From NCBI GenBank assembly GCA_964545575.1, contig CAZJFL010000001.1:153896-217895 (forward strand): 64,000 nt of DNA, in the 5' to 3' direction. Made by a program: the position numbers and the translations under genes. The notes beneath the pieces are model-generated. The model did not search any database and was not told where the DNA came from. It worked only from the letters and a program-made list of their open reading frames with translations. This document shows positions 1 to 64,000 of this stretch, in pieces. This DNA is from an uncultured Planctomycetales bacterium. Its GTDB lineage: Bacteria > Omnitrophota > Gorgyraeia > Gygaellales > Profunditerraquicolaceae. Numbering within the stretch: the stretch's first letter is position 1; every line of letters starts with the position of its first letter.

Positions 1-900
1 AGTAGCGGCTATGCGTAGCCAGGGTGAACCGTGATATAGTTGCGCCAATCTGCCTAATATATCTGATATTACAAAGCCCGCATGTGCGCTAACACCGAAA
101 TTCGAAAGTACTGCGTCCAAAAAAAGTGAAGAAATAGCGATAGGAATAATTAATGAGAAAAAGAATGCGCTAGGCTTCTTCTTAAGTAAGGGTTGGCCAT
201 AAGGAGCAAATAGGATAAAGCCAACGGAAATCAGGTAACCAACGCTCAAGGTAACGATATCCCAATAATCACCAACATAAGTCTTGGGATTCGGATAAGC
301 CTTAGCTATCTGGTTTAGTTCAGCTACTAATTGCAGCCCTAGGTGAAGCGTCATCAAAGCTATTCCTATAAGAGCTGTATCCTTGAAGACTGAATCTAAC
401 TCTTCAGAGGATTTAGACATGGCTTTAAGTAGCCTGCCTATAAGATCAAGAATAAAGAATAAAATGGCTCCAAAACCCAGAGTAATTAGCAAATCGTTAA
501 AATGTGAAGGGATTAACGGTGAGAAGGAATTAAACAAAGAATATAATTGCGTGTCTTTAGCAAAAGATCTCCAAGCAGCAAGAACTAAAATTACTATCGA
601 TATTGAATAATAAAGCCATACCTTGATGTTTACCCTGCTACTACGAAAATAGGCAGAGATTCTAATCAACCACCCCCTGGTTGTGGTAATTAAAATTAGA
701 GGTAATGGTGTCATGACAGCTGCGCTAAGGAGAGTGATTGCGGATACGATAATAACCGCCAGCCACGGCGGACCGGTGAACTGCAAGTGCTTAAGGATTT
801 CCTGTGTATGCGGGGACCCAAGCTTAAACATCGCCGATCCGGAAATGCCGATGCCCAGAAGCGGGGTTAACAATTCAAGCAGGAAGAAGCCGGATGATTT
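1..900 (-). other. Membrane region with several transmembrane helices, the most C-terminal part in the window
   Basis: Verified translation of 1-960 gives successive hydrophobic helices, for example KSSGFFLLELLTPLLGIGISGSAMF, PPWLAVIIVSAITLLSAAVMTPLPLILITTT, WLYYSIVILVLAAW, LGFGAILFFILDLIGRLL, ALIGIALMTLHLGLQLVAEL, VTLSVGYLISVGFILFAPYG and FFFSLIIPIAISSLFLDAVLSNFGVSAHAGFVISDILG. It is preceded by a Pro/Ala linker LQPPAAPVPARPK at about 905-960. Confidence 0.5.
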
Positions 901-3900
901 CTTCGGGCGAGCGGGCACAGGGGCGGCGGGCGGCTGTAAAGGTAAATCTTGATTAATCACAGAAGTAAGATATCCGCGCAATAGCCGGCAAAACGGATCA
1001 TCATCGTCTGCCTCCTGCGACTCAAAAGGATAATCTTCTTTTAAACCATAAAATCCTCCATTATCATCATACTCTTTAAACTTCTGCAGCAGACTCTCAT
1101 CGCTTGTAATATGATTATCCTCAATAAATCTTTTATTTAGTATCTGCTTAAAGCCTTCTAAGCCACCCTCTGACTTAACAACATCTTCATCGGCAAATTG
1201 ACCTATCGTTCTATCTAAAACATACCAGCGCGAATCGCCTTGTATTTTCACCTCCACACAACTATGCCTCCTTATCAAACCTGGGTTTTCTTTCTTTGAA
1301 TCGTAATAACTTACTCTGACCGCTGTAATAAAATCCTCCTTTCTGAACCTATCGCAAATAGCATCTTTCCAATCTCTGCACCATCCTCGTAGCTGACGGC
1401 CCCTTTTACCCCTAATAGGCTCTTTGCATCCAACAACTAAACATTCTCCAAGAATAAGTTTTAGGGATGGCCAGAAGGGATTTTCCTTTAGCGGCGCAAG
1501 GGCCACGAAATCATCGCTGGAACAGGATTCCCGCCCGCCGTTTGCGCCGCAGCCGGGCGCAGGGGCGCGGTTAAAACGGTCGCGTTTGACAAAAGTGCAA
1601 ATAAAGGTGAAGCTATACAATACTACCAAGCAGTAAAGCGGCAGATCGGTCAGCGCATAAAGATAGGCCAGGATAATCAAGGGGATAAAATTAAGGCGGG
1701 TGACGTACCAGATGTTTTTTAGCGGCGAGGCTTTAGGCATCTGATTAGTCCTTAAGAAATGCAGAACAAAGAAGAGCCCCCAGGCAATCACCGTGGCCAG
1801 GCGGATATCCATAAAGAAAGCTAAGGCTAAATTCAGCCCCCAGAAAATCCCTTGCTCTATCCGCGCCTGTTTTTCCAGAGGAATGCCGTGCTGCATCAGG
1901 AAATAACTTAGGGCCGGGATCATACCGGCGCCAGAATTATTATCTTGTCGCGACGCTTGCGGCTCGGGCGCAGGGGCGGCGCCCTCCTCCCGGCCGGCGG
2001 CACCGCTGCCAGGCCGCGGCGCCTGAGACTGATATTTATCAATCCTTACCGCTAAGCCTAAAACCCTACCCTCTTTATCCCTGTTAATGTTTTCTAGTAG
2101 ATGCGGATTTTTCTCAATAAATGATTCCTGTAATCTCTGGGCTTCTGGAGTATTTAAAACAGGAATATGCAGGCTAATACCGGGGATCTCCCCTATATAA
2201 AACTTTCTTACGCCTATCTTTTTCAAATAAGCAAAAACCTCATCGCGCAACAGGCTACCTATACCTTTATCCCGCCAGTCGATGCTCACATAGATGCCGT
2301 CTCCGAAGGCTACGATTGCCTCTTCTAGCGCACAAACATAAAATTGATAAGCTGCTACCGGAGTATTTTTGATAAAGGCGATTATTGCATCCTTACCTTC
2401 ATAGCCGACCTTGGACTTAAACAAGCATACCGAGGAATAACGCCCGAAGAATGTATCGCCTGCCATGCTATCTGACAAATCTTCGGGAAGTTCGCTTAAA
2501 AGATAAAATCTTAAATCCTCAATTTCATCGCTCCGGCCAGAGTCGAGCGCAGGGGCAGCGAGCAGAACGGGAGACTCAGTGTCCCTATAGAAGATTTTTT
2601 CCCAGAACCTGGGGTCAGCCTCGTAAAGAAGAAACTCTTCGTCCCTGTCCAATACAAAGACGCTTTGTCCGTGTTCATGTTTTCTGATCAGGTAATCTAT
2701 AACGCTGGCAAAGAAATCTTGTTCCTCTTTAGTGAGGGGGTCATTTTTATTGAAATACGAATCGCCAAATACATACATCGCAAACTTATCACAAAAGAGC
2801 TCTTCATCAATATCCAGTTTATAGCCGTGCTGGAGGTGTTCGTCTCCTTGATTCTTTCTCCAATCAGAAAGAAAGCCTTCTCTCTTACAAGCTGAGCCAA
2901 ACCTATGCCTTAGTCTTTGCGGTATCAATAAATAAAGCACGTATCCGACCTCATGGTAGAAGCCATGCTCTTCTATGCTGAAAAATATTTCCTCCGCATC
3001 CTTATCTTTTGGACTTAGGCCTAAAGAGTGAAAGACCGTCCATAAAGCATTTACGCCCTGATCAAAAGTAAGGTCGAGGAAGTTGATTTCTGCAAATATA
3101 CGCTTGCCCTCTGCAATATCCATCGCTGCTCTTACCATGCCTATGGGAGCCCGGTTCACATGAGCATCTTTAGTTAAATTCGCAAAATTATAAGTTAATC
3201 CTTCCTCGAATATAAACGGCAGAATACGATAAATCCTTTCTGCCCAACGCTGTATCTGTCGCGGACGGAATTGCCTGATAAAACCTGCGCGCGGGCTGTC
3301 CAAAGGCACCGGTAGGCCAGAGTGAGATTCAAATTCTCTTCTTAGCCTAACCATAAGTAAGGCCATTACTTCTTTATCCAGTCCTTGCCGAAGCAAAGAT
3401 TCCTTTACTTCTTGAAACATCAATCGCCTGATATAATCCTGGCTGCCGTATCTGGCTTGGGTGCTTTGAATATAATTCCTATCATCCGGCGTAGAAGCAG
3501 ATGATGGTTCAGCAGGGGCTATCCCTGCCCCTCGGCTTCTAATAGGTATAGCGGGGATGGTTTTAGTCTTTAAATCAAACCTTAAGTCTCCTTCTTTGGT
3601 CGGTTCAAACCCAAGCGGGATATAAAAATTTTCTGCCTTCCCCTTAGCCGGCGCCAAAATTAAAAATTCACTGTAGCCATAATGTGTTGTTAACTCTAAC
3701 GCTTGGGTAATTAAATTAGAGCCTATGCTGCGAAACTGGTATGCGCTATCTACAAAAATGCCTTCCTTGGCTATAACGCGCCCTTTACCATCGTAAGCAG
3801 TACCGACTAAAACGGTAATGCCATCATCCATCAGGGAAAAATGGAGATAGCCGATAGCCTCACCGCCATGATTAACTTCGATTATCCCAACGCTCCTATG

Positions 3901-6900
3901 CGAGCATCTATTATCGTTGATGGCGATACTCCGATAGCAAAAATCAAACTTCTCCCCGTCTTCGGAATTAATAGTCAAGCGGCCTTGCCTGGCTAAAGTT
4001 TCCCCTATAGATAAGCGGTTAGTGGCGCGACTCCCCTTGCGCTCTGCAATAACTCCCGGGCAGCCGGGCCGAGTTCTTATTTTTCTTAAAACAGCTAATA
4101 TTGTATTCCCGGTAACCGCATAAACCCACCTTGTACCATCGAGGACTTCTGCCTCGTATACGATAGCGACTAATTTTCCTTTATAGAATACTGAGGCGCC
4201 GCAAATCCCACCGTGGTTTATCTCGGTACCGGTCGTATCTATCTCCAGGATATCCCTTGAGCCGTCGCTACAGAGCACTCGGCGTGCAGGCACGGTAACT
4301 ACATCTTTATAGCAGAATCTATTTCCGCTCCTGGCCTTACTGTAACGTATGAATGGGATGACTACTTCAAATTCGCCATCAAGGGGCGGAACGCCTATCT
4401 CTAAAGAATCAAATTCGGTAAGGTAATTCGGCGCAGGCCCTGCTGGGCCCGCAGAGGGGGTATAGGAAATGCTCGAAATGTATATGACCCCGATATCTTT
4501 GCCGGACTCATCGCAACAGGCCAAGATCCTTCCCATGGCAAAAAGTTTATCTTCTGTAAATTCCGCCATGACCAGGTCTCCCGGCTTCACCCGATGCCCC
4601 ACGGTCAAGACAAAAGCCGCATCCCTGGTTGATCTGATAATCGTCCCCTGATATAAAGTACTCTGGTCTACATCCTCCAGCCCAAGGATGCGCCGTAATG
4701 ACCTGTTTCTTTCTTCGCCTGCGACAAACCCTCCGTCTCTTTCCTCTGCCACCTGCGGCTCGGGCGCAGGGGTGGCGGCAGGCGATAATTTAGGATCGGG
4801 TTTAAACGCTACAGCATCACCTATTCCCTCATAGCCTTCTTTTACCCACTTCATGCGCAGTGGGAGAATGTCGTTCTCTATCCCTTTCTTTCCTCCTTCA
4901 TGCAGGCTATATATTAATGAACGAAGGCTATCGCAAAATTCATCAAATTTCATATCGCAGGCATGATCAGTTATACAACTTAATTTTCCTTCATATTGTA
5001 ATGTAGAGAAGTCTATAAGGAGGACCTTTCCGTTTGTGGTAATGAAAATATGCCGTAGGCTAGAATCGCCGTGAAAAATATGTAGTTCGCGATTAAGGAT
5101 CCCATAGACTCTGCCGATTTCCCTGAAAAAATATCTTTCGTTTGCTAAGAACATCTTGCGGTAATATCGATTACGACGATGCTGATCATCTATAACTTCT
5201 TCGAGGGAAAGGCCATCGCTGATCTCGCGGATTAGTAAAGTGTCCGCCACAACAACGGACGGCGGCGTAATCCCTCTCCGGGAAGCCTTGAGGGTTATTT
5301 TGTATTCGAGTGCGGTGGGGTTACGACGTTTTAGATTTGATGAATGGCGTAGTTTTGCGTAGAAAGATACTGGTCCTTTTTCTGTAGTAAGGGTAAATTT
5401 AAGAACGTATCCGAATATATCTGCTCTTTCGTATAGACCTCCTGGCCCTTCTTCTCCCGCAATCTCATGGGTGCTAGCCAAGATCTTTTTTACTCCGAGG
5501 AACTTTTTAATCGCTGCTTGCTTGTAAAGTATGCATTGTACTTTCTCAGCTACAAACGGTTGCTTTTCCTCATCTACCAAAAGCATTCCAATAAACCGAC
5601 TTATCACCGGCGGAGCGCGGGGACGGCGAGCTCCAGCCATCAATAGCCCGCCGACCAAGAGGCCAAGGATAATTCCTGCCAGAATCGGATTATATATTCC
5701 GTCGGCAAATAAAACCAAAAGTACGACAACGGCAGGCAAGCGGGCAATGGTGGCAGATGAATTTGTGCTGCCGGTTTGCGGCGCCTGCGGCCGAGCAGAA
5801 TCTGTGGGCTTGGCGCGGTCAGGGGCGGCCGCAGGGGCGGCGGGATTTGACTCTGACCAAAATGCCCGTAAATAACTTATAGGAATCTCTGGGTAGCGAT
5901 CGTATAAGACCTGATATTGCTGCTTGATCTTACGCAGGCGTACAAGGTCTGTACTGTCTAAAGAATATAACCTTATTTCTTTGACGACCCTTTTCGCCTC
6001 TCGATCCTGTATTAAAGGCTCGAGTGGCCTATCGTTAAGCTTGGCGACCAGCAGTCTTTCAATAAGTTTGAGTCGGTCTAAATCCCCAAAGAAACGTTCA
6101 AACTCAAAATCTTCTTTTCCAAATAACCAGGCCCACTGCAATGTCGCTTTGATCACCTCGATATGCGCGTGGCGAGTAAAACGCACAAAAATCTCATCTA
6201 CCAGGTCTGCCTCATCTACCGCCGCCTCAAATACCTCATGCGCAAAAGTAACCGGCGTATTTACGCTACCCTTAATATAATAAATACCCGACCCCTGAAT
6301 CTCGGGGCAGGCGATAATAGCCCGGAGTTGTGCCGGTTCGAATACGCCAGCGGAATTCCTATCGCGATAATATTTAACTCTTTCCCATACCTGAGAGTTA
6401 ATGTAAATCGCCTGCGTATGCAGATTATAGTCGCCACTTATTTCTTTGGCCCCTAATCTCCTGCCTAATTCAAGCGGATTTTGATTTAGAGAAGGCGCTT
6501 CTTCCAGGCGAACGGCCTGTGCTAGCTTGCGCCAAGCAGTGGCTATGGCTTCATCTATTTCCGGACAAGAAGGAAATAGTCCTTTCCACTCTTTTATAGG
6601 CATACTCCTTCTCTTTTTTGGAACAATTGGCGCCAATACTTCCTGACTATTATCACCCATGTTAGGTAAATGAACGTGGCCCGGCGCAGGGGCGGTAGAC
6701 GGTACGGCTGGAGACTTCTCCCAAATAAAATGCCATGATCCCACAGGCTCATTCCTGAACCCTCGCTTCAGATAAAAATCAGCCATTATCTCATCGGGTT
6801 CTCGGCCACTTTCATCTTGAACAAGAAAAAGAGGAGTATTAATCAAGGTAATGCGGCTAAATTTATTTTGGCAGAATTCTATTAAGGATCCGGCTATACC

Positions 6901-9900
6901 TCTATTGCGGTATTTTGGATGGACAAAGAAATCATCGAGAGAGACTGCATGAAAATCTTTCAGTGTATATACCAGATAACCAAATACTGTTTTGATTATT
7001 GGATCGACAGCTGCAATTAAATGTGTTATGCCACTCAGTAGCTCTTGGGTTCTACTTTCCAGAATATCTAAGTCAGAGTAACCAGGATCAATTGTTAATG
7101 CCTGACCGATACCTTGTTTATCGTATACAAAAATTATCTCTGGTTTAAGTCTTTCTCTCCCTTTTGGCTCAGGGTAAACGGCCACAGGGGCGGCGGCTCG
7201 ATTTTGCTCTGGACAGGCAGGTGAAGATAATCTCTTTACAGAAACATAAGACAATATTTGTGTACCGGAACAAACATCAACCCAGTCTAGGTCTACCGGG
7301 AAACGCTCAGAGAAATCTTGCCTGCGCCAGAATCTACGCGTGTTTCCTTCATCTACGCATGTGCCGTGAAGTAAAATAATATCAAAACCGCATCTTCTTA
7401 AGTATGGCTCAATAACTCTGCTATACCAAACATAACCTACTCCTTTACCGCGTAAAGAAGAATGGATCTCAAGCTTTTTTATAACTGCCATCCAATTAAG
7501 ATTGTAATAAGACCTTACTGATTTTTGACCGCCTGCGATGCCATGTATCATGTGCTCGTGGTAAGCGCTCGCATCGTTCCATAATACATCCCGAAGAAGA
7601 TCGTTAAGTTCACAGTCACCGTAAGCGATTCCCAGGGTATTTTCTACGCAGAGAGTCAAAGAAGCTGCTTCGCATTCCTTTTCAGCGGCCTCTCCTTCCC
7701 TCTTAAATAATAAGGAAAGGCTTATTTCGCCTTCTTTATAGACGGCTACCCGCGTTTCTAATCTTCCCTTCTCGCCTGTATCATCCATTACTTTTTTGAT
7801 TTCTCGGTACGGCAAAAGGCTATCTGGAGCAATTGTCAAGTCAAACTTTGGTTTTCCGCGCGCATCCTCTATTCTATCGGCGGGCGCAGGGGCGCTGTCG
7901 TCTTGCCTGGCCATTGCCAGCTCAAAACCAACAAAGCAGCCCATTGCGCCGCCTATAGGAGGAACAGGTGCATGATAGGGTAAAGCCAGCGGCACTATGA
8001 TGGTTCCGGCATAAGGATTACGCGAATTATATATATTTCGTTTTTCCGGGTCACTAAGCACCAGATAAGCTTCGATAATCTGACGCATGATTTCTCCCAG
8101 GCGCGCATCACTCTGGCAGATATCCGGATGATAGCGTTTGGTCAATTTTAAAAATTGCCCCTTAATCTCATCCGGAGCGGCATCCTTAGTAACCCCTAAA
8201 ACCCCGTAATAATCTTTTTTGTAATCCGCCTGGACGCCTGCGAATAAATCCCGATACTCTTGTTTAAGCCGCTCGAGCCACTTCTGCAATTCCCGTAACA
8301 TATCCTCGGCCATTATCTGGTCTCTAACCGCCTGCCGTAATAAAGCAGCGCTCTGTTTATTTGAATGCCGGGCATAGATATTTAAAAATAAACCTATAAC
8401 CCCAAAGATACCTCCTAAGATACCGAATAAAAACATAATCTCTCCCAGAGACGGCGCGCCTGTGGCGCCGACGAAACTGAAGACTATAAGGGCACCAAAC
8501 ATGGCCAAGAGGATGCGCTTGGCATTTTTATAGAGCCAGATGATCGGCTTGACTACCAGCCATTTAAAGACCAAGCCCGCCAGTGCCGTTACTCCGCTTT
8601 CCAGCAAACCTCCCTTTTCTCCCACGCCGGGTATCTTATCCGTTGCGTGTGAAATTGTGCTCTTGATGATATATTGTGCCAGCTCCGGATGGTCCTTACT
8701 GATCTCTAATGGCGCAGCTGCCAGGCCAAATGTCGGGACCAAACTCCAGAAAAGAGCCAAGAAATACTTTGGCCTGAAAGCGAAGACGATTAAAGAAACC
8801 ACAAACCTGAAGGCAACATCAATCGCCTCAGGGATTAACCAGCCCCACTCCGCCTTCCCCTGAAAAATCAGCGTCTTCAGGAATGCAACCATTCCTCCGG
8901 CTCCGACGATGGGCGGATTAACCACGCCTAAGACCCCCTTGAGAATTACATGCAGGCCGAAAAGAATAATCATATCGCGGTTATCTTTTGCCTCCATTTG
9001 CCGCCTTAATGATTGCGCTTCTTTTTCATCCAGCCGCCCGCTTTTTAAATCTTCGTCTATCCATTTATTGATGAGCTTTTTGGCGTAGACCAGGATCTTA
9101 TCGGGAATGGTCCTAACCCAGCGGAATATAGTAACGAATTGGTGAAATAATGCTTTTATCTTCCCGGTAAATAGATAAATCAAGGCCTGCTTCAAATGAT
9201 ACAGGGTTTGTTTGAAGGCGTAGTGAAAAGGAATGCATAGCGCCCTGACTTTAACATCAATATAGTCGCATAATTGCCAGAAAAGATTTAATAAATGCCG
9301 GGGTAAACTTTTTAAGGTCCTAAAGAGATACTCCCAATCAAAATGCAACGGTTCGCTTTCCCGCCACATTTTCAGGTAATACACCAGCCTCTGGAAATCC
9401 TCTTCTCTGCCAAGTTCGAGATGGCTGTCCACGTAACGCTTCAGCCGCTTAAGCGCTACTAAATCAGCAAAGACCGGCGAGCGACGGTTCAGTAAACCGA
9501 TGACCCAATATTTTATCTCCCACGGAGTCGCCACCACCGAACCCACTAAATCCATTATCCTGAAATCCCCTCCGGCGGTTTTTACGATATTGGCGAGGCT
9601 GTTCAGGTTAGCGCTATCTATCTGGCGGCCGATGCCGATAAAACCTAATTCTCTGACTAAGAAATCATAAAAATCAGCCGCCCTGTGCCTGAACTCGCTG
9701 ATATCAGAGAAACTATGCCGAACGATGCGGCACCCCTCCAGAAGCTGAAATGCCTGGGCATAGCAGCCGGCTTGGCTGTCATAATAAGTAAAAAGTAATT
9801 CCGGCGTTATATTTGCGCCAAATTCCTGCCTGAAGGCGCGGACAATAATCCTGTTGGAGAAATGGTTAGCCAATACTGCCCAGAGATTATTTTCATAGGA

Positions 9901-12900
9901 ATAGGGGTATCCCCGCCAGAGCCGGAACCAGAACCTGACCAAGGCAATGGCTATCTTCTTGGCGGTAGTCTTGGGCCAGATATGATAATATTTCACCGCA
10001 AAAGTCCGGTCGGCGGTTATATCTTTGGCCTTATATACCGTACCGGAAAGGCCCGCGCCCAGTTCGCCCAGTATCTGGATGGTAATGTTACCGGCTCCGT
10101 AAGTCCGGATGTCCTTGACATCTCCTGTTTTCGGCTCTACGCTGCTCACTTTTCTTCGGTCTAATGGCGTAACTACGTCAATAATCTCGGTGCTAAAATC
10201 TGAAGCAATCCCCGGTACCACTGGTTCACTTCTATCATCCGCAGATAACCGGTAGTCATAATGCAGGCCGAAGAAACGCATCACGGAAAACAGCAATAAG
10301 GCCGGGATATAGAATACGGCCGATTCGGCAAATTCATAGACTGCACCCCAGGGGTAGAAGCGGCTGCGCTTTAATAATTCATCACAAAAGTACGCATACC
10401 ACTTCAAATGCCCCTTAAGGTACGGTTCTTTTTTATAGCCGTTCTCGGCAAAGAATTTTAGACTGAAGGCGCGCCGGACAATCAAGTATTTTGTAATTTG
10501 TCTAGAGATAGTTATATTTGGCGTAAGATAAATCGTCCTGCTGACGGGGATATCTTTGCCTCCGAAAATAGCAACCATCGTGTAATCTGCGCTTAGCCGG
10601 ACATCCTCAGCCAGCGCAAGCGCCGCAAGCAATTCTCTATCGCCTGACTTCTCTGCCTGTTGCTTTAGTTCAACGCGGACTTCCCTGATACGTTCTTCAG
10701 GGCTCTTTTTTAAATATTGCGTCAATCTTAAAAATGCCGGAAGGTCCGTAAACGGGAAGTAGCCGATTAAAGGCAAAGCGGAAATAAAGACTAGAGTGCC
10801 AAACACGACCATACTCATAATGCGCAATGGTGCGGGGGTACATAAAATAAGGGCAATGAGCGCGAGGGGGATTAAATTGAGGCCTACGGCAACAAGGATT
10901 TTTCTCGCCCAGTCCGGCTTCGAATTCTTGCCCTGCCATCCAGAACCATCCCTGAGGGCGGATTTTGTTTTAGCTAAAACGATAAAGGCAGAATTGATTT
11001 CCTCAACAGTCAACCTGCTCAGGTCTTTTAATACCATATGCGCGCCAAAACTACGCAATGTCTCTATATCCCCTAAGCCGATAACCAAACCAAAATTACC
11101 GGATATTCCGGCCTTAATATCAGCATCGGCATCACCGATAACTATGGCCTGTTCAGGGGCAACGCCCATTCTTTTGGCAGCAAGCAGAAACATCTCCGGG
11201 TCAGGCTTGCCTCGCTGGACATCCCTACTTGTGATTACCACATCGAAGTTATTCTTTAGGCCAATCTTCTCTAAGATTTCCGGTGTAGCATCAGAGCCAG
11301 AACCAACCACCAGCCTAATCCCTGCCTCGCGCAGCCGGCTTATTAGCGCAAACGTTCCCTGGATTTTATTAACGCCTCTTAACTCTAGTAGCTGCATATA
11401 ATATTTCTGCCGCTCTTGAGCCATCAGTAAAACCTGAGCATCAGCCAATCCGGGAAACATCATCTCTATAGAAGTAGTTTCTTTCCTACCGTTAAGCCGC
11501 TCTTGAAAATATTGCATAGTTACTTCCGGGCCGCGGTGGGCCTCAGAGAGCATCCGCCAAGCCTGGAAATGCTCCTGAACGGTATCGATGATCACGCCAT
11601 CACAGTCAAAAATTACGGCCTTAAAGGAACTGTTCGGGGATAACCCTTCAGGGGACGCTTCTCCGATTGGCACAGGGCCTGGTCCTGCTTTGGCGCGAGA
11701 ACTGTCCCTGAAGAAAGTAAAGAGCCCGTAGGCCAGCGCTAAGAAAACTAAGGCAAAGAAGATAAAGTACGGTATCGCCGGGCGCGTAATCAAAGCGGCT
11801 AAATCTCGAGCGATAAATTGCCAGGTGCCGCTCTGAGTAAGAGTAATTTTAAAAACAGTAAAATAAGGCCATAATTTCAGCATTAAGGAATCAGAAACCA
11901 GCAACCAGCCGAAAACAAAAGCGCACAAAACCGCTGCCGCCGCAAAAGCATAGTAGGTAGGCTTACGCTGGGATTTAAAAACGGTTTGAACCATTCCGCG
12001 CAGTTCATTAAAGCGGGCAAGGAATTCGCCGCAGAAACCTTGATATTTGCGATGTAGCGGCTCATGGTAATCTCGGATGGAAATCTGGAATATTTTCGGC
12101 AGGTATTGGAACGCGGGATGTTGTCCTTCGGGCGTAGCAATATAAGTAGTTAACGCAGGCGGGCCTTTAATCAAACCGGCTTTTTTGGCATAGATCCGGA
12201 ATGCCCGCAGCACAAATAAGCCCTTTACTACAAAAACCAGACCGGCCAAAGCAACTAATACTGTCAGACCTAAACAGATTTTTCCTAACTGGGGGACGCT
12301 GTATACGAAGCCGGCCGCCACCAGAAAAGCAATGAAGGCAAATCCGAAATCCTCCAGCGCAGCGGATTTAGCACTTGCCGCTTTTAACCGCCATGGTCTT
12401 AGGATAAGAGCCCCTCTGCTTTTTTTCTGAATAATCATTTTAACTGCTGAAGAAATATCTATTGGCTTGCCACTCTTCTTGATTGCCTTATTTATCGCGG
12501 CAGAGGTCCAGCCATAACTGATAATCCGGCAGGCATCCCTATACTTTATTCTGGCTTCATCTAAAGCCGCCAAGCCGGCTTTTAATCTTCCCGTAAAAAC
12601 CTTAAACGCCTTACTGCCCAGCCAATCTGTATTATTGTATTTTATACGTTGCCTGTCAGGACGCGAAATTAAACCGTTCTCAACATACTTCTGGCGAAAA
12701 TAAGCTGCTTTATTTAGCTCTTTTACCCTGCGCTGGCCCGCAACATTAGCTACCACGGTTAGATTATCAATAATCTGCTGCGCTAATGTTTTAGGCAACC
12801 TCTCGGCTCTCAACGCCCGATAGAACTTCTTTCTAAATTCTGCTTCTGCTTTTTGTTTTAAAGAAAATCTTCTACTCCTAATCGTGCTTTCGCGGAAAAG

Positions 12901-57900: not shown

Positions 57901-60900
57901 AGACAATATCGCTCTCACGCCCATCTTTTCACCCGCGCCCGGAACAACGCCGGCGGGCTCAACTTGTGTATTTCTTTTAACCAGTTGCAAAACCTGAGGC
58001 ACAAAATCCTTAGGCAGTTGGCCTTCGTATCTGCGTAAGGCCTCCTCAATTACGCCTATCTTGACATCCGGGTCTTTCTTTAGTATAGAAACGAGGATTC
58101 TGCTTACATCGCGCGGATAGGGAAGGCGCGAATTATCAGCGGCACAAATCTCAAAAATAGTTTCCACGACTAGCATTCCTCTTTTTTTGCCTCCCATTTC
58201 AGATAAAGCGTCTGCTGCGGGATCACTCCAATTGCATTCATTAGCCCAAGGGCCGCGATAAGAACTCCACAACTCTTTAGCTGCCTGCTTAACCAGCGCA
58301 TCAGCCCCCGGTATTCTCGCTACTACCTGCGCCAGAGCAGGTATTATCCGAACAAGACAAATATTATTCCAACCTTCCTGAGGATTTACAAAAGCGCCTG
58401 CGCGCCATAACGTTAAAGCCTCAAAATATGCCTCGACTGCTCTCTCGCCCCCTATTTTAGCTAAGGCCTTAACTGCTGCCTCTTTAACCGCGGTTTCCAG
58501 GCCTCTTACCGGGTTGCGGCATAAAAAGTATTTCAATCTACTCACCGCTCTTTCATCCCCTATATTACCAAGCGAAGAAATTGCCGCAGGGATAAGCAGC
58601 CGCTTATCTTGCTCTCTCTTTAAAAAGCCTAACCAAAAATCAAGCAGCGCTGGATCGCGCATATTAGCCAAAGCATCTGCTGCTTGCAAATAGGCTTCAG
58701 GCAGGCTTGTCCCAAGCTTCAAGCCTCGTCTCACTATTTCAATTAAAGAATCAGCTACTGGCGCCCCGATTTTACTTAAAGCCTCTGCCGCAGCCTTTGA
58801 TAATCCATCCCTGATATCAGCCTTAGAATCATCCTTTAGCTCAAGCATATTCTTCTTTAAAGCCTCCAATAAATCTTCCTTTGCTTCCATAGCACGCAGT
58901 TCTCCCAGCGCCTTGGCGCTGGCAACAAAAGCATCCAGGCCTTTATGAGCCAAAGCATAATTACTATTGTGCATACTCTCATTCAGGCTAAATTTCAAGC
59001 ATTCCAGCAAAGTATTGATTATTCTTTCTCTTATTACCAGCCTTATTTTAGCCAGCGTAACAAATTTCGGAATGACTGCGCTATCTACAGTCCGCACAGG
59101 CTCCTGGCGTAAGGGAGACGAATCGTGCTGCACGTACAAGGCAAAGAAAAGGCAGCTAAATCTATAAAGTGCATCCGCCTTAAAATGATCCCCAACCAGA
59201 TGCTCAATTGCTTCGTGGATCAATATTTCTCCTAAATCGGGCTGTTTATCCGGCGCCTGGAGGAGGCTGTAGAAATCATGGCTGATGCAGAAGACAACCT
59301 TAAGGAGACCTTCTATTTCTAATTCAACTAAACCTGAACGATAATCTACTCCTAAATCCACTACCCAGACTTGATCGATACGCTCAGGCAGGGCGAGCTG
59401 ACCTTGCGGACCAATCACTTCCCCGCAGATCCTCTTTAGCATAGGCCCGGCTGCCTCAAATTCTTTATTAATCATCTCTCCTAAGGCCGAAGTAACATCC
59501 TGTTGTTTCTCTGTGCCGATTGTCTCTTTGATAGCGGCGATAAATTCATCCCTGGTGCCGGGAAACGCACCATTATGGCCCTGACAAGGAGCAGAGGGGC
59601 CAGCTGGCGTCCGGCGGCTGGGGTCGGCGGCGGGCAATGAGGAAACGTTCAAGCTCCTCGCCATAGGAAAGATGAAGTCAAAGAAACTATCATCCGGGCA
59701 CCCATCATTAAGCTGCCTTGTTGTCCCGAAAAATCCTAGTTTTTTCCAGAACCTGCTCGTCTGCGCAATATTATTACATGTCCCCCAGAAAACAACGACT
59801 TGGAAACCGCATCGCCTGAAGTAAGGCGCAAGGTGATCCTCAAACCATAGCCTACCGATACCTTTGCGCCTTATTCTTTCATCAAGCCGATAATAAGTAA
59901 TCAAGGGTATCCACTTTAAATTATGATATGTGATTATCCACATCCTTCCCGGCCTGACAGCCGTACGTACGCTCTTTGGTGTCCAAAGCAAATCTTTTAT
60001 TTCTTTGCCATACCATTCAAGTGGCTGAGCATCCTCTTGCCCAACACCATCGATTTCTAATTTGTTTGTAGCATCCACCTCTACTTCAGCTATTTTTCCA
60101 CTTGATCCCCTCCGTCTAACTGTTATATAAGCTTTACGCTGTTCAGTAATTTCAGCCTCTACTTTAAGCTGTTTTATCCCCACGCCCAAGGCCCGGGCGA
60201 TTTCCTTAAGAGGAGCTAAGCTTTCCAGGGGAATTGCGCTATTAAAAGTAATCCTCTCGGAAGAACGTAACTCTAACGCCGTAACAAAATGGGACCAGCC
60301 GCCGCAAAATAACATCTTATCCATAATTACCTGTGTCATCTCCGGCCGCTGCAAAGCGCAATCTGCCAGAGGAACTAATGCCTCATCGAGACGCCTCTTA
60401 AATTCAGTTATCTCGGACGCATAACGCCTTTCATGGTCAGACTCTCGGTTATGGCTACACAAAAATTCAGAATACTCCCAACTTCTTTCACGATAAACAG
60501 CGATCAGGGCATCGACATCAACCACTGCGGCGACTGGCTGCCGACCGGCGCGGGCAGGGCCGCTGTAAGCCTCCACCACCTCTGCTACTGTTTCTTCCCT
60601 GGGTTTCGCAATATAAAATTTCTGCCTGAGGTCAAATTTTAAAGTCGCTGCCAATGCCGCGGCTCTTGTGTGGGCAGCGCTACCTTCAAGGCCTTCCTCG
60701 ACCCTGGCTAAGAAATGTCCTATTTCATGCTTTAATATTTTTTCGCTCCCCCCTTTTTCGACGACAACAGAAAATACGTACTTTTCAGACGACCGCCACA
60801 TTCTGTAACTATCTTTCACCAGCACCCCGCCGCCCCACCTGCTTAAGCGGCCTGGTGAAAATTCATAGACTCGAATTTGATAGCTATCCTTCTGCCCTTT

Positions 60901-63900
60901 TATTTGGATAATCTTAACATCACACGGCACATTCTGTTTTAAGTCCACGGCATCACCCGGATTGACCTTATTGTTATAGGCACCAAGCACCTGGCCGCGG
61001 CCGGGGCCGGCTGGCGGCTGGCTGCTTGAGCCGGTGCCTGACAAGACGAGGCCGGTGTTGCGCGCCAGGAGAGCGGCGGAGATTTGATATTCATTAAGTG
61101 TATAGCCTCTATCCGAGAATGTGCCGTTAAAGGTAAACCCTAACTTTCTATGCAAGCTATTAGTCGCCAGATTGTCTGCTAAGGTTAATATCACTAACGT
61201 CGGCTCACTGCTATGATCAAGCAAGAAATAGCGCGGGCCCTGTTGCGCATAATCAAAAGGCAGGACCAATTCTATGCCGTTGGCCTCGCAATATTCTTTA
61301 ACCTCCCTGAATATCGCCAGGTATTTAGCCAGGTCTTTCTCTTTGGGCATCAGGGATTTTCCCATATCTTGCCCGAAGAAATGTAAGCCGACATTGGCTA
61401 ATGCGCCGATAATAAATACTTTATCGCCGGGCTGTAATCTATTCTTGACGATTTCCAGAATCCCGTCGTATTTATCGAACTTTGCGCCGCCAAAAATCGC
61501 CACCCACGGATGCTTAGCGCTCTTTTCGAAGGCGCTGATTTTAGCCATCTCGGCCTGCGTATATTCTCCTGTCCTGCGGTTTCCCGCGGCAAAAAGATTG
61601 ATCATTTCTATCGATGCTTCTTTGGGGCGATGCCATTTATCCACTGCCTCAAAAACATAATATTTTGCCCCGGTCAGCTCGATGATTCTCTCGGCAAAGG
61701 CCTTTCTCTCGGCGGCATCTTTGGATTTCTCCTGCCGATAGAATCTGACATTTTCAAAGATAAAGATTGCCTTGGGATATTGGCGCCTGGTTTCGGCAAT
61801 CTGCTTTTGGGCGTTATCCAGGTCAAAATCTAAAAGCACGACCGGAATATCTATACCTTCTGCGGCAAGAATCTCTTTTAATCTGGCTGCTACCGGCTTA
61901 AGGCTGTATTTTTCTTCAAAGCCTTCTCCTTTGGGCCGGCCCATATGCGTCATCACAAAAAGGTAATCAAGTTCTCCCAGCGATTTCTTTATCGTTGGGA
62001 CGGCCTGCCGGATTCGCTGATCGTCTCGGATGGCGCCTCCTTTATCCAGAGAAACATTAAAATCTGCTGCCAGGATCGCCGCCTTCTCCGGCGTATTCCG
62101 CTTACCCGCCACCGCTGCAACGCCCATCGAAACCGCTTTCGCCAAACCTAAAATAAAAACGGGCAGGATAAAACTGAAATCTAAATGCGCAGCCGGCGCT
62201 GGTGCCTGATTTGCGGCAAATAATAAATTGGGCAATAAGAGAATTGTGCCGATAACAAAAGGCAGGATGGATTTCAGATACCGGCTTGCCTCAAGGCCTT
62301 TGCCTGCCGGCGCTAATTCCTCTTTCCTAGCTTCTGCCAATTCATTTTTCCGGGCTTCTACCAACAGACGGAACTTAGCCAATAAAAGTTCCAGGTGCGG
62401 AATCGAAGAGTCTACCTTGTGCTCCACCTTGCGTTGCCCGGCCTCATAATCGTCTGTAATTACCTCTTGCTCTTCTTGCTTCTCTTGCTCCTCCTCCATA
62501 AGCTGCCAGAAGAGCCTCGCTGGCCACTCTGCTATAATCTTTTCTTCGCGGTAATAGAGGCAATAGCCGATGAACTTCCTGATTTCTGCGGCGTACAGGC
62601 TGAATCCCCGCGCATCAAAATATCCTTCGGTAAGGATAAACTTCAGCCAGGCCGCCTCCAGGTAAGTGAGCTCTAAATCATATCCTACTTCTTTTAAAGA
62701 AAAGTTAACCCCTGTCCCGGCGCAGAATATCTCCACGGCCTTTTCCGCGTAGGGCTCAAATAAACCGCGCAGCTTCGCTACAAAATCCTGCCAGATTACC
62801 AACGCCGGAGCAGCAACCAATCTTTCTTCATCCGCTATATAAGCCCCGGCAGGATTAAAATAATAATTAAGCAAATGCTTTGCATTCTGATAGATGCGGG
62901 CAAAGGAATCTCTTCTTAAAGTAGAAAACTCGGCATCGCACCTATTTGCCTGCGCCAGCGCCCGGTGCATTGTTTTCTCAATCCGCCGGTAAAGTTCTCC
63001 GGTTAAACGGTGCGAGATTTTATCTTCCGTAACATAAGCCAAGAAAACCTTTACGCCTTCTAAATCCAAACAATACGGCTCCCTGCCTACGGCTGTTGCC
63101 ACTGCCTGTTTTACCAAATTCGGATGTTTTATTGCGCCGCCTGCATCCAGCGCTTTTATGCCGCAGAGAATAGCGGCAATAAATCTTCTCTCGTGATCGT
63201 AAAGCTTGGCATTGATTGCCTGCTGTTCCGGGTTAGCCTGATTTGCTTCCTGCTCAAGCTCCGCCAGCGCTGCCACTGCTGCCTCATATTTAAGCCGGTC
63301 TTGCCTGTCCGTTCCTACTGCCGCCGCAATAAACCCGCCCATCGAAAGCGCTTCCGCGGCAGCTAAAATAAAAAGAGGCCAGAATAACAGATTATGGCGG
63401 CTGGCTTCGCTGCGCCTGCCTTTAAACAAAGGATACAGCGCTACTAATAATAAAATTCCGATAAGCGCAACCGACAGCACCCAATCATAAGAAAACAACT
63501 TGGATAAAAGCATGGCCAGTTGCGCAAAAGGATCTACCTTAGGAACCGGATATATAAGCCCTGCGTAAGCCGGCAAAACAAATATAGGTAACAGCATTCC
63601 GGCAGCGATTGCCCCGGCGCCCGGGCGGGCGGCTTTCTTTTTTCGAAGAGAGGGACGCCTCAGAAAAGAAAGCATGCGTATGCCGCTTATTCCGTCAGCG
63701 TCTAAAGTCCAATCTTTTCCCGGGTCAAATCCCAGAGACTCGAAGAAATTCTGCGCCCGCTCTTTTGCCAACCTGCTATCTTTTGTCTCGCCGGCAGATA
63801 AGGGGTTGGCTTTTAAAAACCAAGCATCCTTAAGGTATCCTTCAGCTTGCGCCAATAATAAATACACAAAAGCCCTACCTAAGCCCAAACCATGGTTTCC

Positions 63901-64000: not shown

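What the first reader, a model, noticed from the sequence alone, without database searches (positions are those of the whole stretch)
1..64000. The whole 64 kb window is the interior of a single stop-free reading frame: a giant gene of more than 21,000 codons
Every sampled stretch of the minus strand translates in one frame without stops and with real protein motifs. The supplied ORF track contains no ORF in that frame, as expected if neither end of the ORF lies in the window. Prokaryotic genes above 60 kb are extremely rare; established knowledge holds that the largest known come from a few lineages such as Omnitrophota and Chlorobium-like taxa. This one carries an unprecedented cargo of cytoplasmic-type enzyme and regulator domains. 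Both gene ends lie outside the window, so the true size is unknown.
Basis: partly seen in the sequence, partly recalled or inferred. Interest (0 to 1): 0.95.

Follow-up and report, generated by a model that had tools for sequence, protein, structure and literature searches.

The report
Interior of a giant mosaic membrane-protein gene
The whole 64 kb window really is the middle of one unbroken bacterial gene of more than 21,333 codons, but it belongs to an already described kind: the membrane-threaded, multi-enzyme giant proteins best known from Omnitrophota.

Summary
Observation confirmed. The minus strand, frame offset 1 (window 1-63999), has 0 stop codons in 21,333 codons. The other five frames have 689-1,531 stops, and chance probability is about 1e-540. 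Coding statistics and codon usage are uniform throughout.

The product is almost non-repetitive. It has 33-45 hydrophobic TM-like segments, mostly hairpins, separating soluble stretches. These carry PGK-like, HEAT, TPR, GT4, ARMT1-like, M48 peptidase, ABC1/UbiB kinase, wHTH/MarR, HAD, J-domain and GNAT domains. About 80-90% is unannotatable.

Two complete proteins that stand alone elsewhere are embedded end to end: a ~430-aa GT4 glycosyltransferase and a ~1,600-aa M48...ABC1 protein. The second keeps all family-invariant residues and is bracketed by a 160-nt perfect direct repeat of a hydrophobic cassette.

No close or collinear relative was found in any collection searched. Lineage is unproven; codon usage and module context point to Omnitrophota or a related PVC lineage.

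Such giants, up to 147,155 aa with GT1, GNAT, HAD, HEAT and TPR cargo and many TM helices, are published. Verdict: a new member of a known kind, of moderate interest.

The parts
1..63999 (-). Interior of one stop-free ORF, 21,333 codons. Amino acid i ends at window position 63999-3(i-1). Both the start and the stop lie outside the window.
63319..63609 (-). First TM hairpin region (aa 131-227). It is paralogous to the second hairpin at aa 578-631 (window 62107-62268).
61243..62088 (-). PGK-like domain (aa 638-919). It is truncated, matching only profile positions 8-263 of 379. It keeps THMGRPKG, DDQRIR and GGAKF but lacks the C-terminal part of the nucleotide-binding domain.
58414..58701 (-). 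HEAT-like repeats (aa 1767-1862); the match is weak.
49387..50454 (-). TPR repeat region (aa 4516-4871), preceded by a TM cluster at aa 4264-4432 (window 50704-51210).
45637..46176 (-). A ~170-aa module (aa 5942-6121), paralogous at 41% identity to part of the P0158-like module.
35890..37173 (-). Embedded complete GT4/GT1 glycosyltransferase unit (aa 8943-9370). It follows a TM cluster (aa 8794-8890) and a Pro/Ser/Ala-rich linker.
34783..35484 (-). ARMT1-like (DUF89) damage-control phosphatase domain (aa 9506-9739).
32512..32841 (-). Hydrophobic 'junction cassette', copy A (aa 10387-10496). The 160-nt perfect-repeat core lies at window 32630-32789.
26164..31107 (-). Embedded complete unit of the ~1,500-aa M48-peptidase...ABC1/UbiB-kinase family (aa ~10,965-12,612). 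The HExxH motif is near aa 11,051 and the ABC1 domain spans aa 12,279-12,486.
25801..26130 (-). Junction cassette, copy B (aa 12624-12733). The 160-nt perfect-repeat core lies at window 25919-26078, which is 6,711 nt (2,237 codons) from copy A.
23398..25071 (-). Module homologous to smaller proteins of 608-867 aa (P0158, P0217, P0273) and to part of the 3,765-aa protein P0135 (aa 12,977-13,534).
18634..22767 (-). Region carrying three winged-helix/MarR-type motifs: aa 13745-13800, 14972-15018 and 15067-15122.
14674..14919 (-). Junction cassette, copy C (aa 16361-16442), about 93% identical to A and B over the core.
11101..11625 (-). HAD phosphatase domain (aa 17459-17633) with an intact DxDG motif (FDCDGV) and GDADAD. 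It is flanked by TM clusters at aa 17218-17430 and 17701-17912.
8026..8214 (-). J-domain (DnaJ, aa 18596-18658) with an intact HPD motif.
3592..7023 (-). Two GNAT acetyltransferase domains (aa 18993-19082 and 20034-20136), with a TM hairpin at aa 19417-19457 between them.
100..888 (-). Polytopic hydrophobic region of about 8 TM-like segments (aa 21038-21300) at the C-terminal edge of the window.

Best explanation
The window is the interior of a real, very long bacterial gene of more than 21,333 codons. It encodes a membrane-threaded mosaic protein: a single chain in which hydrophobic hairpins or cassettes and Pro/Ser/Ala-rich linkers join many unrelated soluble modules. Some modules are complete enzymes that exist as stand-alone proteins in other organisms, namely a GT4 glycosyltransferase and an M48-peptidase...ABC1-kinase protein. 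Others are single domains: PGK-like, ARMT1-like, HAD, J-domain, GNAT, wHTH/MarR, TPR and HEAT. Most of the chain is orphan sequence.

This is the architecture published for Omnitrophota giant proteins (Archaeovorin type, or the 'multi-enzyme metabolic cluster' class).

Inferred mechanism: the hairpins tether the chain to the inner membrane, with most soluble modules on the cytoplasmic face. That concentrates sugar-nucleotide, phosphotransfer, acetyl-CoA and chaperone-recruiting activities at the envelope. By analogy with Velamenicoccus archaeovorus, this probably serves a host- or prey-associated lifestyle.

Shown here: the ORF, its coding quality, the domains, the embedded whole units, and the lack of collinear relatives. 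Inferred only: the topology, single-polypeptide expression, the biological role, and the lineage.
For: ORF and coding quality.
Domain cargo.
Intact motifs: HAD DxDG, J-domain HPD, M48 HExxH and the ABC1 motif HxDxHxGN.
Non-repetitive sequence.
TM-like segments: 33-45 in total, mostly hairpins 19-45 aa apart, with K+R density 0.17-0.19 in the flanks against 0.09 in the loops.
Embedded M48...ABC1 unit: P0121 residues 81-1634 of 1,650 align to giant aa 10,982-12,596 in one HSP at 39% identity. The family has 272 representatives at E <= 1e-30, and the giant keeps every invariant column.
Embedded GT4 unit: P0013 residues 1-435 of 438 align to giant aa 8,943-9,368.
Module context: the M48...ABC1 unit is a ~1,500-aa stand-alone protein in CPR and other MAGs. 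In Omnitrophota- and Planctomycetes-labelled MAGs it sits inside ORFs of 4,558 to more than 8,173 aa.
Codon usage: RSCU r = 0.72-0.85 with those large ORFs and -0.06 to 0.52 with the CPR genes.
Literature match.
Against: No marker gene is present, and the source contig was not found in any collection, so the lineage is unproven.
The nearest named relatives of the embedded unit carry mixed labels: 'Actinomycetota', Margulisiibacteriota, Omnitrophota and CPR.
No SecA_DEAD, C39, methyltransferase or NUDIX domain was found in the window.
Topology is unresolved. Several hydrophobic segments appear single rather than paired, so simple parity would put GT4, HAD or MarR on the opposite side from PGK and ABC1.
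The closest stand-alone relative, P0121, starts with a lipoprotein-type signal, and the unit's M48 end resembles periplasmic BepA.
West-Roberts et al. predicted mostly extracellular domains.
The PGK-like domain is truncated.
There is no expression evidence for this gene.
Confidence: 0.8

Rival explanations
1. Assembly chimera. The continuous ORF could be an in-frame mis-join of two or more large genes, or of strain variants, at shared cassette repeats. In that case the module order, and possibly the 'single gene' itself, would be an artefact.
For: A 160-nt perfect direct repeat lies at window 32630-32789 and 25919-26078, and a third copy is about 93% identical. That is longer than typical short-read k-mers. 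A join inside a coding cassette would preserve the reading frame.
Against: Codon usage and tetranucleotide composition are homogeneous along the window. The sequence flanking every copy is unique and stays in frame. Only this one repeat family could mediate a mis-join. Even if split at the cassettes, the pieces would still be open ORFs of several thousand codons that run off both ends of the window.
Confidence: 0.07
2. It is an extracellular or surface effector, following the predation model for Archaeovorins. Most soluble modules would be exported and would act on a host or prey cell envelope, with the TM segments anchoring the exported chain.
For: West-Roberts et al. predicted most Archaeovorin domains to be extracellular and proposed cell-wall attack. 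The closest stand-alone relative of the M48...ABC1 unit has a lipoprotein-type signal, and its M48 domain resembles periplasmic BepA. TPR and HEAT repeats and a GT domain are all present.
Against: The cargo needs cytoplasmic cofactors or partners: the J-domain with HPD needs DnaK and ATP, ABC1 and PGK-like need ATP, GT4 needs NDP-sugar, GNAT needs acetyl-CoA, and MarR/wHTH needs DNA. The hairpin arrangement and the positive-inside bias keep the flanks on one side. No glycoside hydrolase, lytic transglycosylase, dockerin or adhesin domain was found.
Confidence: 0.2
3. It is a polyprotein. The giant ORF would be translated once and then cut, for example by its own M48-type peptidase(s), into separate functional proteins. 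Alternatively, internal starts would yield separate products, so the 'giant protein' would never act as one chain.
For: Whole stand-alone-type proteins are embedded with flexible linkers. An HExxH peptidase unit is present. An in-frame ATG at aa 10,897 lies close to where the stand-alone relatives start. West-Roberts et al. raise cleavage by C39/S8 domains as a possibility.
Against: No conserved cleavage motif was found at the module borders. The SD-like motif upstream of the ATG is weak. Nothing in these data shows processing. Published proteomics for V. archaeovorus cannot resolve the question.
Confidence: 0.15
4. It is a giant gene of the same architectural kind but from a lineage other than Omnitrophota, for example Planctomycetota, Margulisiibacteriota or an unsampled phylum.
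For: The relatives carry mixed taxon labels. No relative exceeds ~41% identity over the unit (57% over the kinase domain alone) in GTDB representatives or JGI metagenomes. Large ORFs carrying the same unit occur in Planctomycetes-labelled MAGs, including L011 at more than 8,173 aa and L005 at 5,803 aa. West-Roberts et al. list Margulisbacteria and Planctomycetota as rich in very large genes.
Against: Five of the 19 GTDB loci are Omnitrophota, and the best codon-usage matches are Omnitrophota-labelled (L018 r = 0.85, L008 r = 0.80). Published multi-enzyme, TM-rich giants of more than 20 kaa are concentrated in Omnitrophota.
Confidence: 0.35

Closest known systems
Archaeovorin-type giant proteins of Omnitrophota (type: the 39,678-aa protein of Velamenicoccus archaeovorus LiM; West-Roberts et al. 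2023, Seymour et al. 2023)
   Same: A single ORF of tens of kilobases. Dozens of TM helices are scattered along the chain (42 in 39,678 aa there, 33-45 in 21,333 aa here). The cargo includes HEAT, TPR, GT1, GNAT, peptidase and glycolytic-enzyme-like domains. Few domains can be annotated, and conservation is poor.
   Different: No SecA_DEAD, C39/S8, methyltransferase, NUDIX or glycoside-hydrolase domain occurs in this window. No sequence-level collinear homology was detected. The lineage and full length are unknown. The cargo here includes a J-domain, ABC1 kinase, ARMT1-like, MarR/wHTH and PGK-like domains; PGK, DnaJ, ABC1 and MarR were searched for in the main text of Nielsen & Lui, and PGK, DnaJ and M48 in West-Roberts et al., and none was found.
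'Multi-enzyme metabolic cluster' class of long Omnitrophota proteins with TM-only topology (Nielsen & Lui 2026; e.g. KR0015B_u4168876_114, 147,155 aa)
   Same: Many distinct Pfam families tile the chain and none dominates. GT1, GNAT, HAD and HEAT/TPR domains are present. TM helices take up a few percent of residues. There is very little nucleotide tandem repeat. The sequence is unique, as with the 80% of their clusters that are singletons.
   Different: Only a 21,333-aa interior piece is available. The presence of a signal peptide, the genome context and the taxon cannot be checked.
The ~1,500-aa M48-peptidase...ABC1/UbiB-kinase proteins (annotated 'AarF/UbiB family protein'), common in CPR, Omnitrophota and other MAGs
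   Same: Giant aa ~10,965-12,612 aligns end to end with these proteins at 39% identity to P0121, and keeps all invariant residues.
   Different: Here the unit has no start or stop codon of its own. It is fused in frame between two copies of a hydrophobic cassette inside a much larger ORF.
Repeat-type giant adhesins (e.g. the 36,805-aa protein of Chlorobium chlorochromatii) and NRPS/PKS megasynthases
   Same: A very long single ORF in a prokaryote. NRPS/PKS are also multi-enzyme chains.
   Different: This ORF has no tandem domain repeats, no Ig, cadherin, haemagglutinin or RTX domains, and no C/A/T or KS/AT/ACP modules. Its composition is rich in Leu, Ala, Glu and Arg rather than Thr, Ser, Gly, Asp and Asn.

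Membership tests
Archaeovorin-type Omnitrophota giant protein (West-Roberts 2023) | ORF >= 30,000 aa (their 'giant' threshold; 'large' is >= 10,000 aa) | not testable with these tools
   At least 21,333 aa lie in the window and both ends lie outside it. The source contig was not found in any collection.
Archaeovorin-type Omnitrophota giant protein (West-Roberts 2023) | Encoded in an Omnitrophota genome | tested here: inconclusive
   The window holds no marker gene. RSCU is most similar to large ORFs in Omnitrophota-labelled MAGs (r up to 0.85). The shared unit sits inside large ORFs in Omnitrophota- and Planctomycetes-labelled MAGs. The closest relatives carry mixed labels.
Archaeovorin-type Omnitrophota giant protein (West-Roberts 2023) | Numerous transmembrane regions along the chain | tested here: met
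   Kyte-Doolittle scanning finds 33 segments at KD >= 1.9 and 45 at KD >= 1.6. This is a crude method; DeepTMHMM was not available.
Archaeovorin-type Omnitrophota giant protein (West-Roberts 2023) | Cargo of HEAT, glycosyltransferase, TPR, GNAT, peptidase and glycolysis-type enzyme domains | tested here: met
   HEAT (weak), TPR, GT1/GT4, GNAT x2, M48 and PGK-like domains were found. Methyltransferase, NUDIX and glycoside-hydrolase domains were not found in the window.
Archaeovorin-type Omnitrophota giant protein (West-Roberts 2023) | Divergent SecA_DEAD / SecA preprotein-binding domain ('most' members, near the C-terminus) | tested here: not met
   No SecA family hit at E <= 0.01 anywhere in the 21,333 aa. 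The domain could lie outside the window.
Archaeovorin-type Omnitrophota giant protein (West-Roberts 2023) | N-terminal C39 or S8 peptidase near a signal peptide | not testable with these tools
   The N-terminus lies outside the window.
Multi-enzyme metabolic-cluster long proteins (Nielsen & Lui 2026, class 1) | Protein >= 10 kaa with many distinct Pfam families tiling it and none dominating by copy number | tested here: met
   At least 14 distinct families were found, none with more than 2-3 copies. Self-comparison finds only 8 internal similarities.
Multi-enzyme metabolic-cluster long proteins (Nielsen & Lui 2026, class 1) | Membrane-associated (TM helices at about 2% of residues) with little nucleotide tandem repeat | tested here: met
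   TM-like segments cover about 3-4% of residues. TRF finds a single 90-nt array.
Repeat-scaffold or adhesin giant proteins | One domain or repeat family repeated many times; adhesin-type domains | tested here: not met
NRPS/PKS megasynthases | Condensation / adenylation / PCP modules, or KS / AT / ACP modules | tested here: not met
   No such Pfam family was found at E <= 0.01.
M48...ABC1 ~1,500-aa protein family (applies to the embedded unit only) | End-to-end homology with the conserved HExxH and ABC1 HxDxHxGN motifs | tested here: met
M48...ABC1 ~1,500-aa protein family (applies to the embedded unit only) | A separate gene with its own start and stop codons | tested here: not met
   The unit is fused in frame on both sides. 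The same is seen in L004, L005, L008, L011 and L018.

The most novel reading that the evidence does not exclude
The giant gene grows by in-frame capture of whole stand-alone genes between copies of a conserved hydrophobic 'junction cassette'. Gene conversion would keep the cassette copies identical. Here, 160-nt perfect direct repeats lie exactly 2,237 codons apart and bracket a complete M48...ABC1 protein. If so, cassette-mediated homologous recombination would be the engine that adds, removes and shuffles modules in giant ORFs. This example would come from a lineage with no close relative in current public collections.
Probability: 0.12. Interest if true: 0.65.

Novelty: new member of a known kind. 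Interest (0 to 1): 0.38.

Why it matters
How giant prokaryotic genes are built, inserted into the membrane and used is still unknown. This example adds a sequence-unique member to the group. It also gives two concrete leads.

First, complete proteins that stand alone in other lineages are embedded as modules. This suggests the giants arise by fusion of whole genes.

Second, the only repeated elements are hydrophobic linker cassettes. One pair is a perfect 160-nt direct repeat that brackets such a module. This suggests a recombination mechanism for gaining and losing modules, which could be tested across the published catalogue of giant proteins.

In itself the finding does not change what is known. 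Size, membrane threading and multi-enzyme cargo are all already described.

Tried and rejected
1. Finding the source contig or the gene ends. Scans of genome contigs, metagenome contigs and viral contigs with aa 1-4,900 found nothing.

2. Word-indexed protein searches of orphan stretches. Searches with aa 2,001-3,500 and aa 17,900-19,400 found nothing, not even the query itself. A 5,000-aa query timed out.

3. NCBIfam and PDB sequence searches added no domain beyond those found by Pfam.

4. A relaxed Pfam scan (E <= 0.5) of ten dark segments gave only noise.

5. Single-sequence AlphaFold2 of aa 17,915-18,340 and aa 225-575 gave mean pLDDT of 40.7 and 39.6. The models are unusable, so no fold search was run.

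6. Collinearity with the large ORFs in 56 related loci. Only the M48...ABC1 unit is shared, plus stray ARMT1, GT, HAD and PGK hits. Operon-to-fusion ancestry is therefore not supported.

7. RNA structure in the 160-nt repeat core: z = 0.39, so none.

8. Taxon names for the closest GT4 relatives: none were available.

9. Chance, recoding, pseudogene, NRPS/PKS and adhesin readings were all rejected.

10. Assigning topology by TM parity. The Kyte-Doolittle candidates gave inconsistent sides for cofactor-dependent domains, so no topology is claimed.
Full report
**Observation.** The minus strand read from window position 63,999 downward (frame offset 1) has no TAA, TAG or TGA in 21,333 consecutive codons. 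The other five frames carry 689-1,531 stops each, and none stays open for more than 639 nt. From base composition a stop is expected at 5.7% of codons, so the chance probability of this open frame is about 1e-540. The frame looks like coding sequence along its whole length. GC1 (~0.55) > GC3 (~0.47) > GC2 (~0.38) holds in every 1,000-codon bin, and off-frame stop density is even. Relative synonymous codon usage correlates at r = 0.74-0.88 among eight 8-kb segments, and tetranucleotide frequencies correlate at r >= 0.82. The first residues of the window already lie in the end of a GNAT-like domain, and the last ones lie in a polytopic hydrophobic region. Both gene ends are therefore outside the window. 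No tRNA or Rfam family is present. The only other ORFs are antisense and at most 201 aa.

**Anatomy.** The protein is rich in Leu, Ala, Glu and Arg, unlike Thr/Ser/Gly-rich adhesins. It is almost free of internal repeats. Self-comparison finds eight similarities in all, and Tandem Repeats Finder finds one 90-nt array. Hydropathy scanning gives 33 strong and 45 permissive TM-like segments. Most are hairpins 19-45 residues apart, separated by soluble stretches of 300-3,600 aa. There are also denser clusters at aa 17,218-17,912, aa 18,343-18,540 and aa 21,038-21,300.

Pfam finds the following domains:
- a truncated PGK-like domain (aa 638-919)
- HEAT (weak) and TPR repeats
- GT1/GT4 (aa 9,181-9,345)
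- ARMT1-like (aa 9,506-9,739)
- an M48 HExxH motif (aa ~11,050)
- ABC1/UbiB kinase (aa 12,279-12,486)
- three wHTH/MarR motifs
- an S6PP-like fragment
- HAD (aa 17,459-17,633)
- a J-domain (aa 18,596-18,658)
- two GNAT domains

Key motifs are intact: HAD DxDG, J-domain HPD, M48 HExxH and ABC1 HxDxHxGN. The PGK-like domain lacks the C-terminal part of the nucleotide-binding domain. By my own sum of the matched stretches, Pfam hits above the gathering score cover only about 10% of the residues. Adding the homology-defined units raises this to about 21%. NCBIfam, PDB sequence search and a relaxed Pfam scan of ten dark segments added nothing.

**Embedded whole proteins.** An exhaustive HMMER search with aa 12,200-13,399 found 855 relatives, 272 of them at E <= 1e-30. 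Most are ~1,500-aa proteins with an M48-like N-terminus and an ABC1-like C-terminus. The best, P0121 (1,650 aa), aligns over its residues 81-1634 with giant aa 10,982-12,596 in a single HSP at 39% identity. In a 12-sequence alignment the giant keeps every invariant column. A profile of that alignment matches soluble M48 peptidases, including BepA, at the N-terminal end, and a UbiB-like protein at the C-terminal end.

Stand-alone ~430-aa GT4 glycosyltransferases also align end to end with giant aa ~8,943-9,370; for example, P0013 aligns over residues 1-435 of 438. This unit sits just after a TM cluster and a Pro/Ser/Ala-rich linker. A third module (aa 12,977-13,534, with a paralogue at aa 5,942-6,121) matches smaller proteins of 608-867 aa. 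The ORF is therefore a chain of units, at least some of which are complete proteins elsewhere.

**Relatives and lineage.** The source contig and any close relative are absent from the 15-billion-protein collection, the GTDB species representatives, the JGI metagenomes and IMG/VR. Scanning GTDB genomes with the unit alignment gave 19 loci. Five are labelled Omnitrophota and two Planctomycetes. The rest are several CPR lineages plus 'Actinomycetota', Delta- and Gammaproteobacteria MAGs. A cluster-mate of another relative is labelled Margulisiibacteriota.

In CPR and most other MAGs the unit is a stand-alone gene of ~1,470-1,650 aa. In the Omnitrophota- and Planctomycetes-labelled MAGs it lies inside ORFs of 4,558, 5,803, >5,710, >6,270 and >8,173 aa. 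Those large ORFs share nothing else with the window's protein apart from one ARMT1-like domain in a different order. The same holds for 37 metagenome loci, where identity reaches at most 41%. Codon usage of the window matches the large ORFs of Omnitrophota-labelled MAGs best (r = 0.85, 0.80, 0.72), followed by the Planctomycetes-labelled ones (0.77, 0.74). It matches the CPR genes poorly (-0.06 to 0.52). This points to Omnitrophota or a related PVC lineage but does not prove it.

**The cassette repeat.** The main repeated elements are hydrophobic linker segments:
- aa 178-227 resembles aa 581-631.
- aa 4,265-4,314 resembles aa 7,124-7,167 at 45% identity.
- A ~110-aa cassette occurs three times, at aa 10,387, 12,624 and 16,361.

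Copies A and B of the cassette share a perfect 160-nt direct repeat at window 32,630-32,789 and 25,919-26,078. This is the only long exact repeat in the window. The copies are 6,711 nt apart, which is exactly 2,237 codons. Similarity is lost sharply on the 5' side. Copy C is about 93% identical over the core. The two perfect copies bracket the embedded M48...ABC1 unit. The core has no unusual RNA fold (z = 0.39), and the cassette is absent from all 56 related loci. The likeliest reading is a recent gene-conversion tract between paralogous linker cassettes. Such repeats would also allow in-frame gain or loss of modules by unequal recombination. They are also the one place where a short-read assembler could mis-join.

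**How it probably works.** Shown: one long ORF with good coding quality, intact catalytic motifs, and whole enzyme units joined by linkers and hydrophobic hairpins. Inferred: the hairpins anchor the chain in the inner membrane and return it to the same side, so most soluble modules face the cytoplasm. Two lines of evidence support this. The flanks of the hairpins are richer in Lys and Arg (0.17-0.19) than the short loops (0.09). The cargo depends on cytoplasmic partners: DnaK for the J-domain, ATP for ABC1, NDP-sugars for GT4, acetyl-CoA for GNAT and DNA for MarR.

Other evidence argues against it. Several hydrophobic segments look single, which would flip sides. P0121 has a lipoprotein-type signal. 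The M48 end resembles periplasmic BepA. West-Roberts et al. predicted mostly extracellular domains and themselves called such predictions unreliable. Topology is therefore unresolved. Whether the chain is later cut into pieces also remains open.

**Comparison with what is known.** Seymour et al. 2023 report ORFs > 20 kb in 77 of 116 Velamenicoccia genomes. They also report the 39,678-aa, 42-TM protein of V. archaeovorus, with few annotated domains and poor conservation. West-Roberts et al. 2023 describe giants of up to 85,804 aa. Their Archaeovorin type carries HEAT, GT, TPR, GNAT, peptidase and glycolytic-enzyme domains and many TM regions. Nielsen & Lui 2026 report 3,650 proteins >= 10 kaa and a maximum of 147,155 aa. 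They describe a 'multi-enzyme metabolic cluster' class with GT1, GNAT, HAD and HEAT/TPR domains, TM density of about 2% of residues, and 80% sequence singletons. They read the TM-only topology as membrane-anchored with cytoplasmic domains.

The window fits this kind on every feature that could be tested. It lacks SecA_DEAD, C39, methyltransferase and NUDIX domains, which may lie outside the window. Term searches of the main text found no mention of fused or stand-alone units in either paper, none of PGK, DnaJ, ABC1 or MarR in Nielsen & Lui, and none of PGK, DnaJ or M48 in West-Roberts et al.. These details are modest additions rather than a new category.

**Verdict.** It is a new, sequence-unique member of a known kind. 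The embedded whole-protein units and the perfect cassette repeat are the points worth following up.

Noticed in passing
window 32630-32789 and 25919-26078 (third copy at 14674-14919): A 160-nt perfect direct repeat, exactly 6,711 nt (2,237 codons) apart, lies inside a thrice-repeated hydrophobic cassette. It brackets the embedded M48...ABC1 unit and is the only long exact repeat in the window. It may be a gene-conversion tract, a substrate for in-frame recombination, or a risk point for mis-assembly.
   Followed up: partly
window 21389-21478 (aa ~14,187-14,205): A 15-nt tandem repeat of 6 copies encodes (QEAAR)n inside a Gln/Ala/Lys-rich low-complexity stretch. It is the only tandem array in 64 kb.
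   Followed up: partly
aa 993-1001 and 3286-3294 (window ~60,997-61,023 and ~54,118-54,144): The linker motif SQPPAGPG occurs twice, with a similar TPAGPS at aa 1,464, in Pro/Gly-rich stretches after GNAT-like or helical segments. It could be a recurring linker or a processing site.
   Followed up: no
window 31309-31311 (aa 10,897): An in-frame ATG with a weak AGGA motif 11-14 nt upstream lies within about 5 residues of where the N-terminus of the stand-alone relative P0121 would map. It may be a relic of the captured gene's start codon, or an internal start.
   Followed up: partly
P0121 / locus L001 9752-14710: The closest stand-alone relative of the embedded unit begins with a lipoprotein-type signal peptide (MRFVRLVLALSMVLPAGC). 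Other family members have hydrophilic N-termini, so the cellular side on which this family acts may differ between lineages.
   Followed up: no
L011 (contig CAYHAI010000102.1, labelled Planctomycetales), 2-24520: An ORF carrying the same M48...ABC1 unit stays open across the whole 24.5-kb locus (more than 8,173 aa, running off both ends). L008 and L018 (Omnitrophota-labelled) also run off their contigs at more than 6,270 and more than 5,710 aa. These are further fragmentary giant genes in public MAGs.
   Followed up: partly
window 61243-62088 (aa 638-919): The PGK-like domain stops at about profile position 263 of 379 and runs straight into a GNAT-like fragment (…LHRKLGF…). It may be a decayed or repurposed substrate-binding domain rather than an active kinase.
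   Followed up: partly
window 1-64000: GC skew on the + strand is negative in every 2-kb bin (cumulative -3.73), so the coding strand is G-rich throughout. This fits the purine bias of a coding strand and/or a leading-strand location.
   Followed up: no
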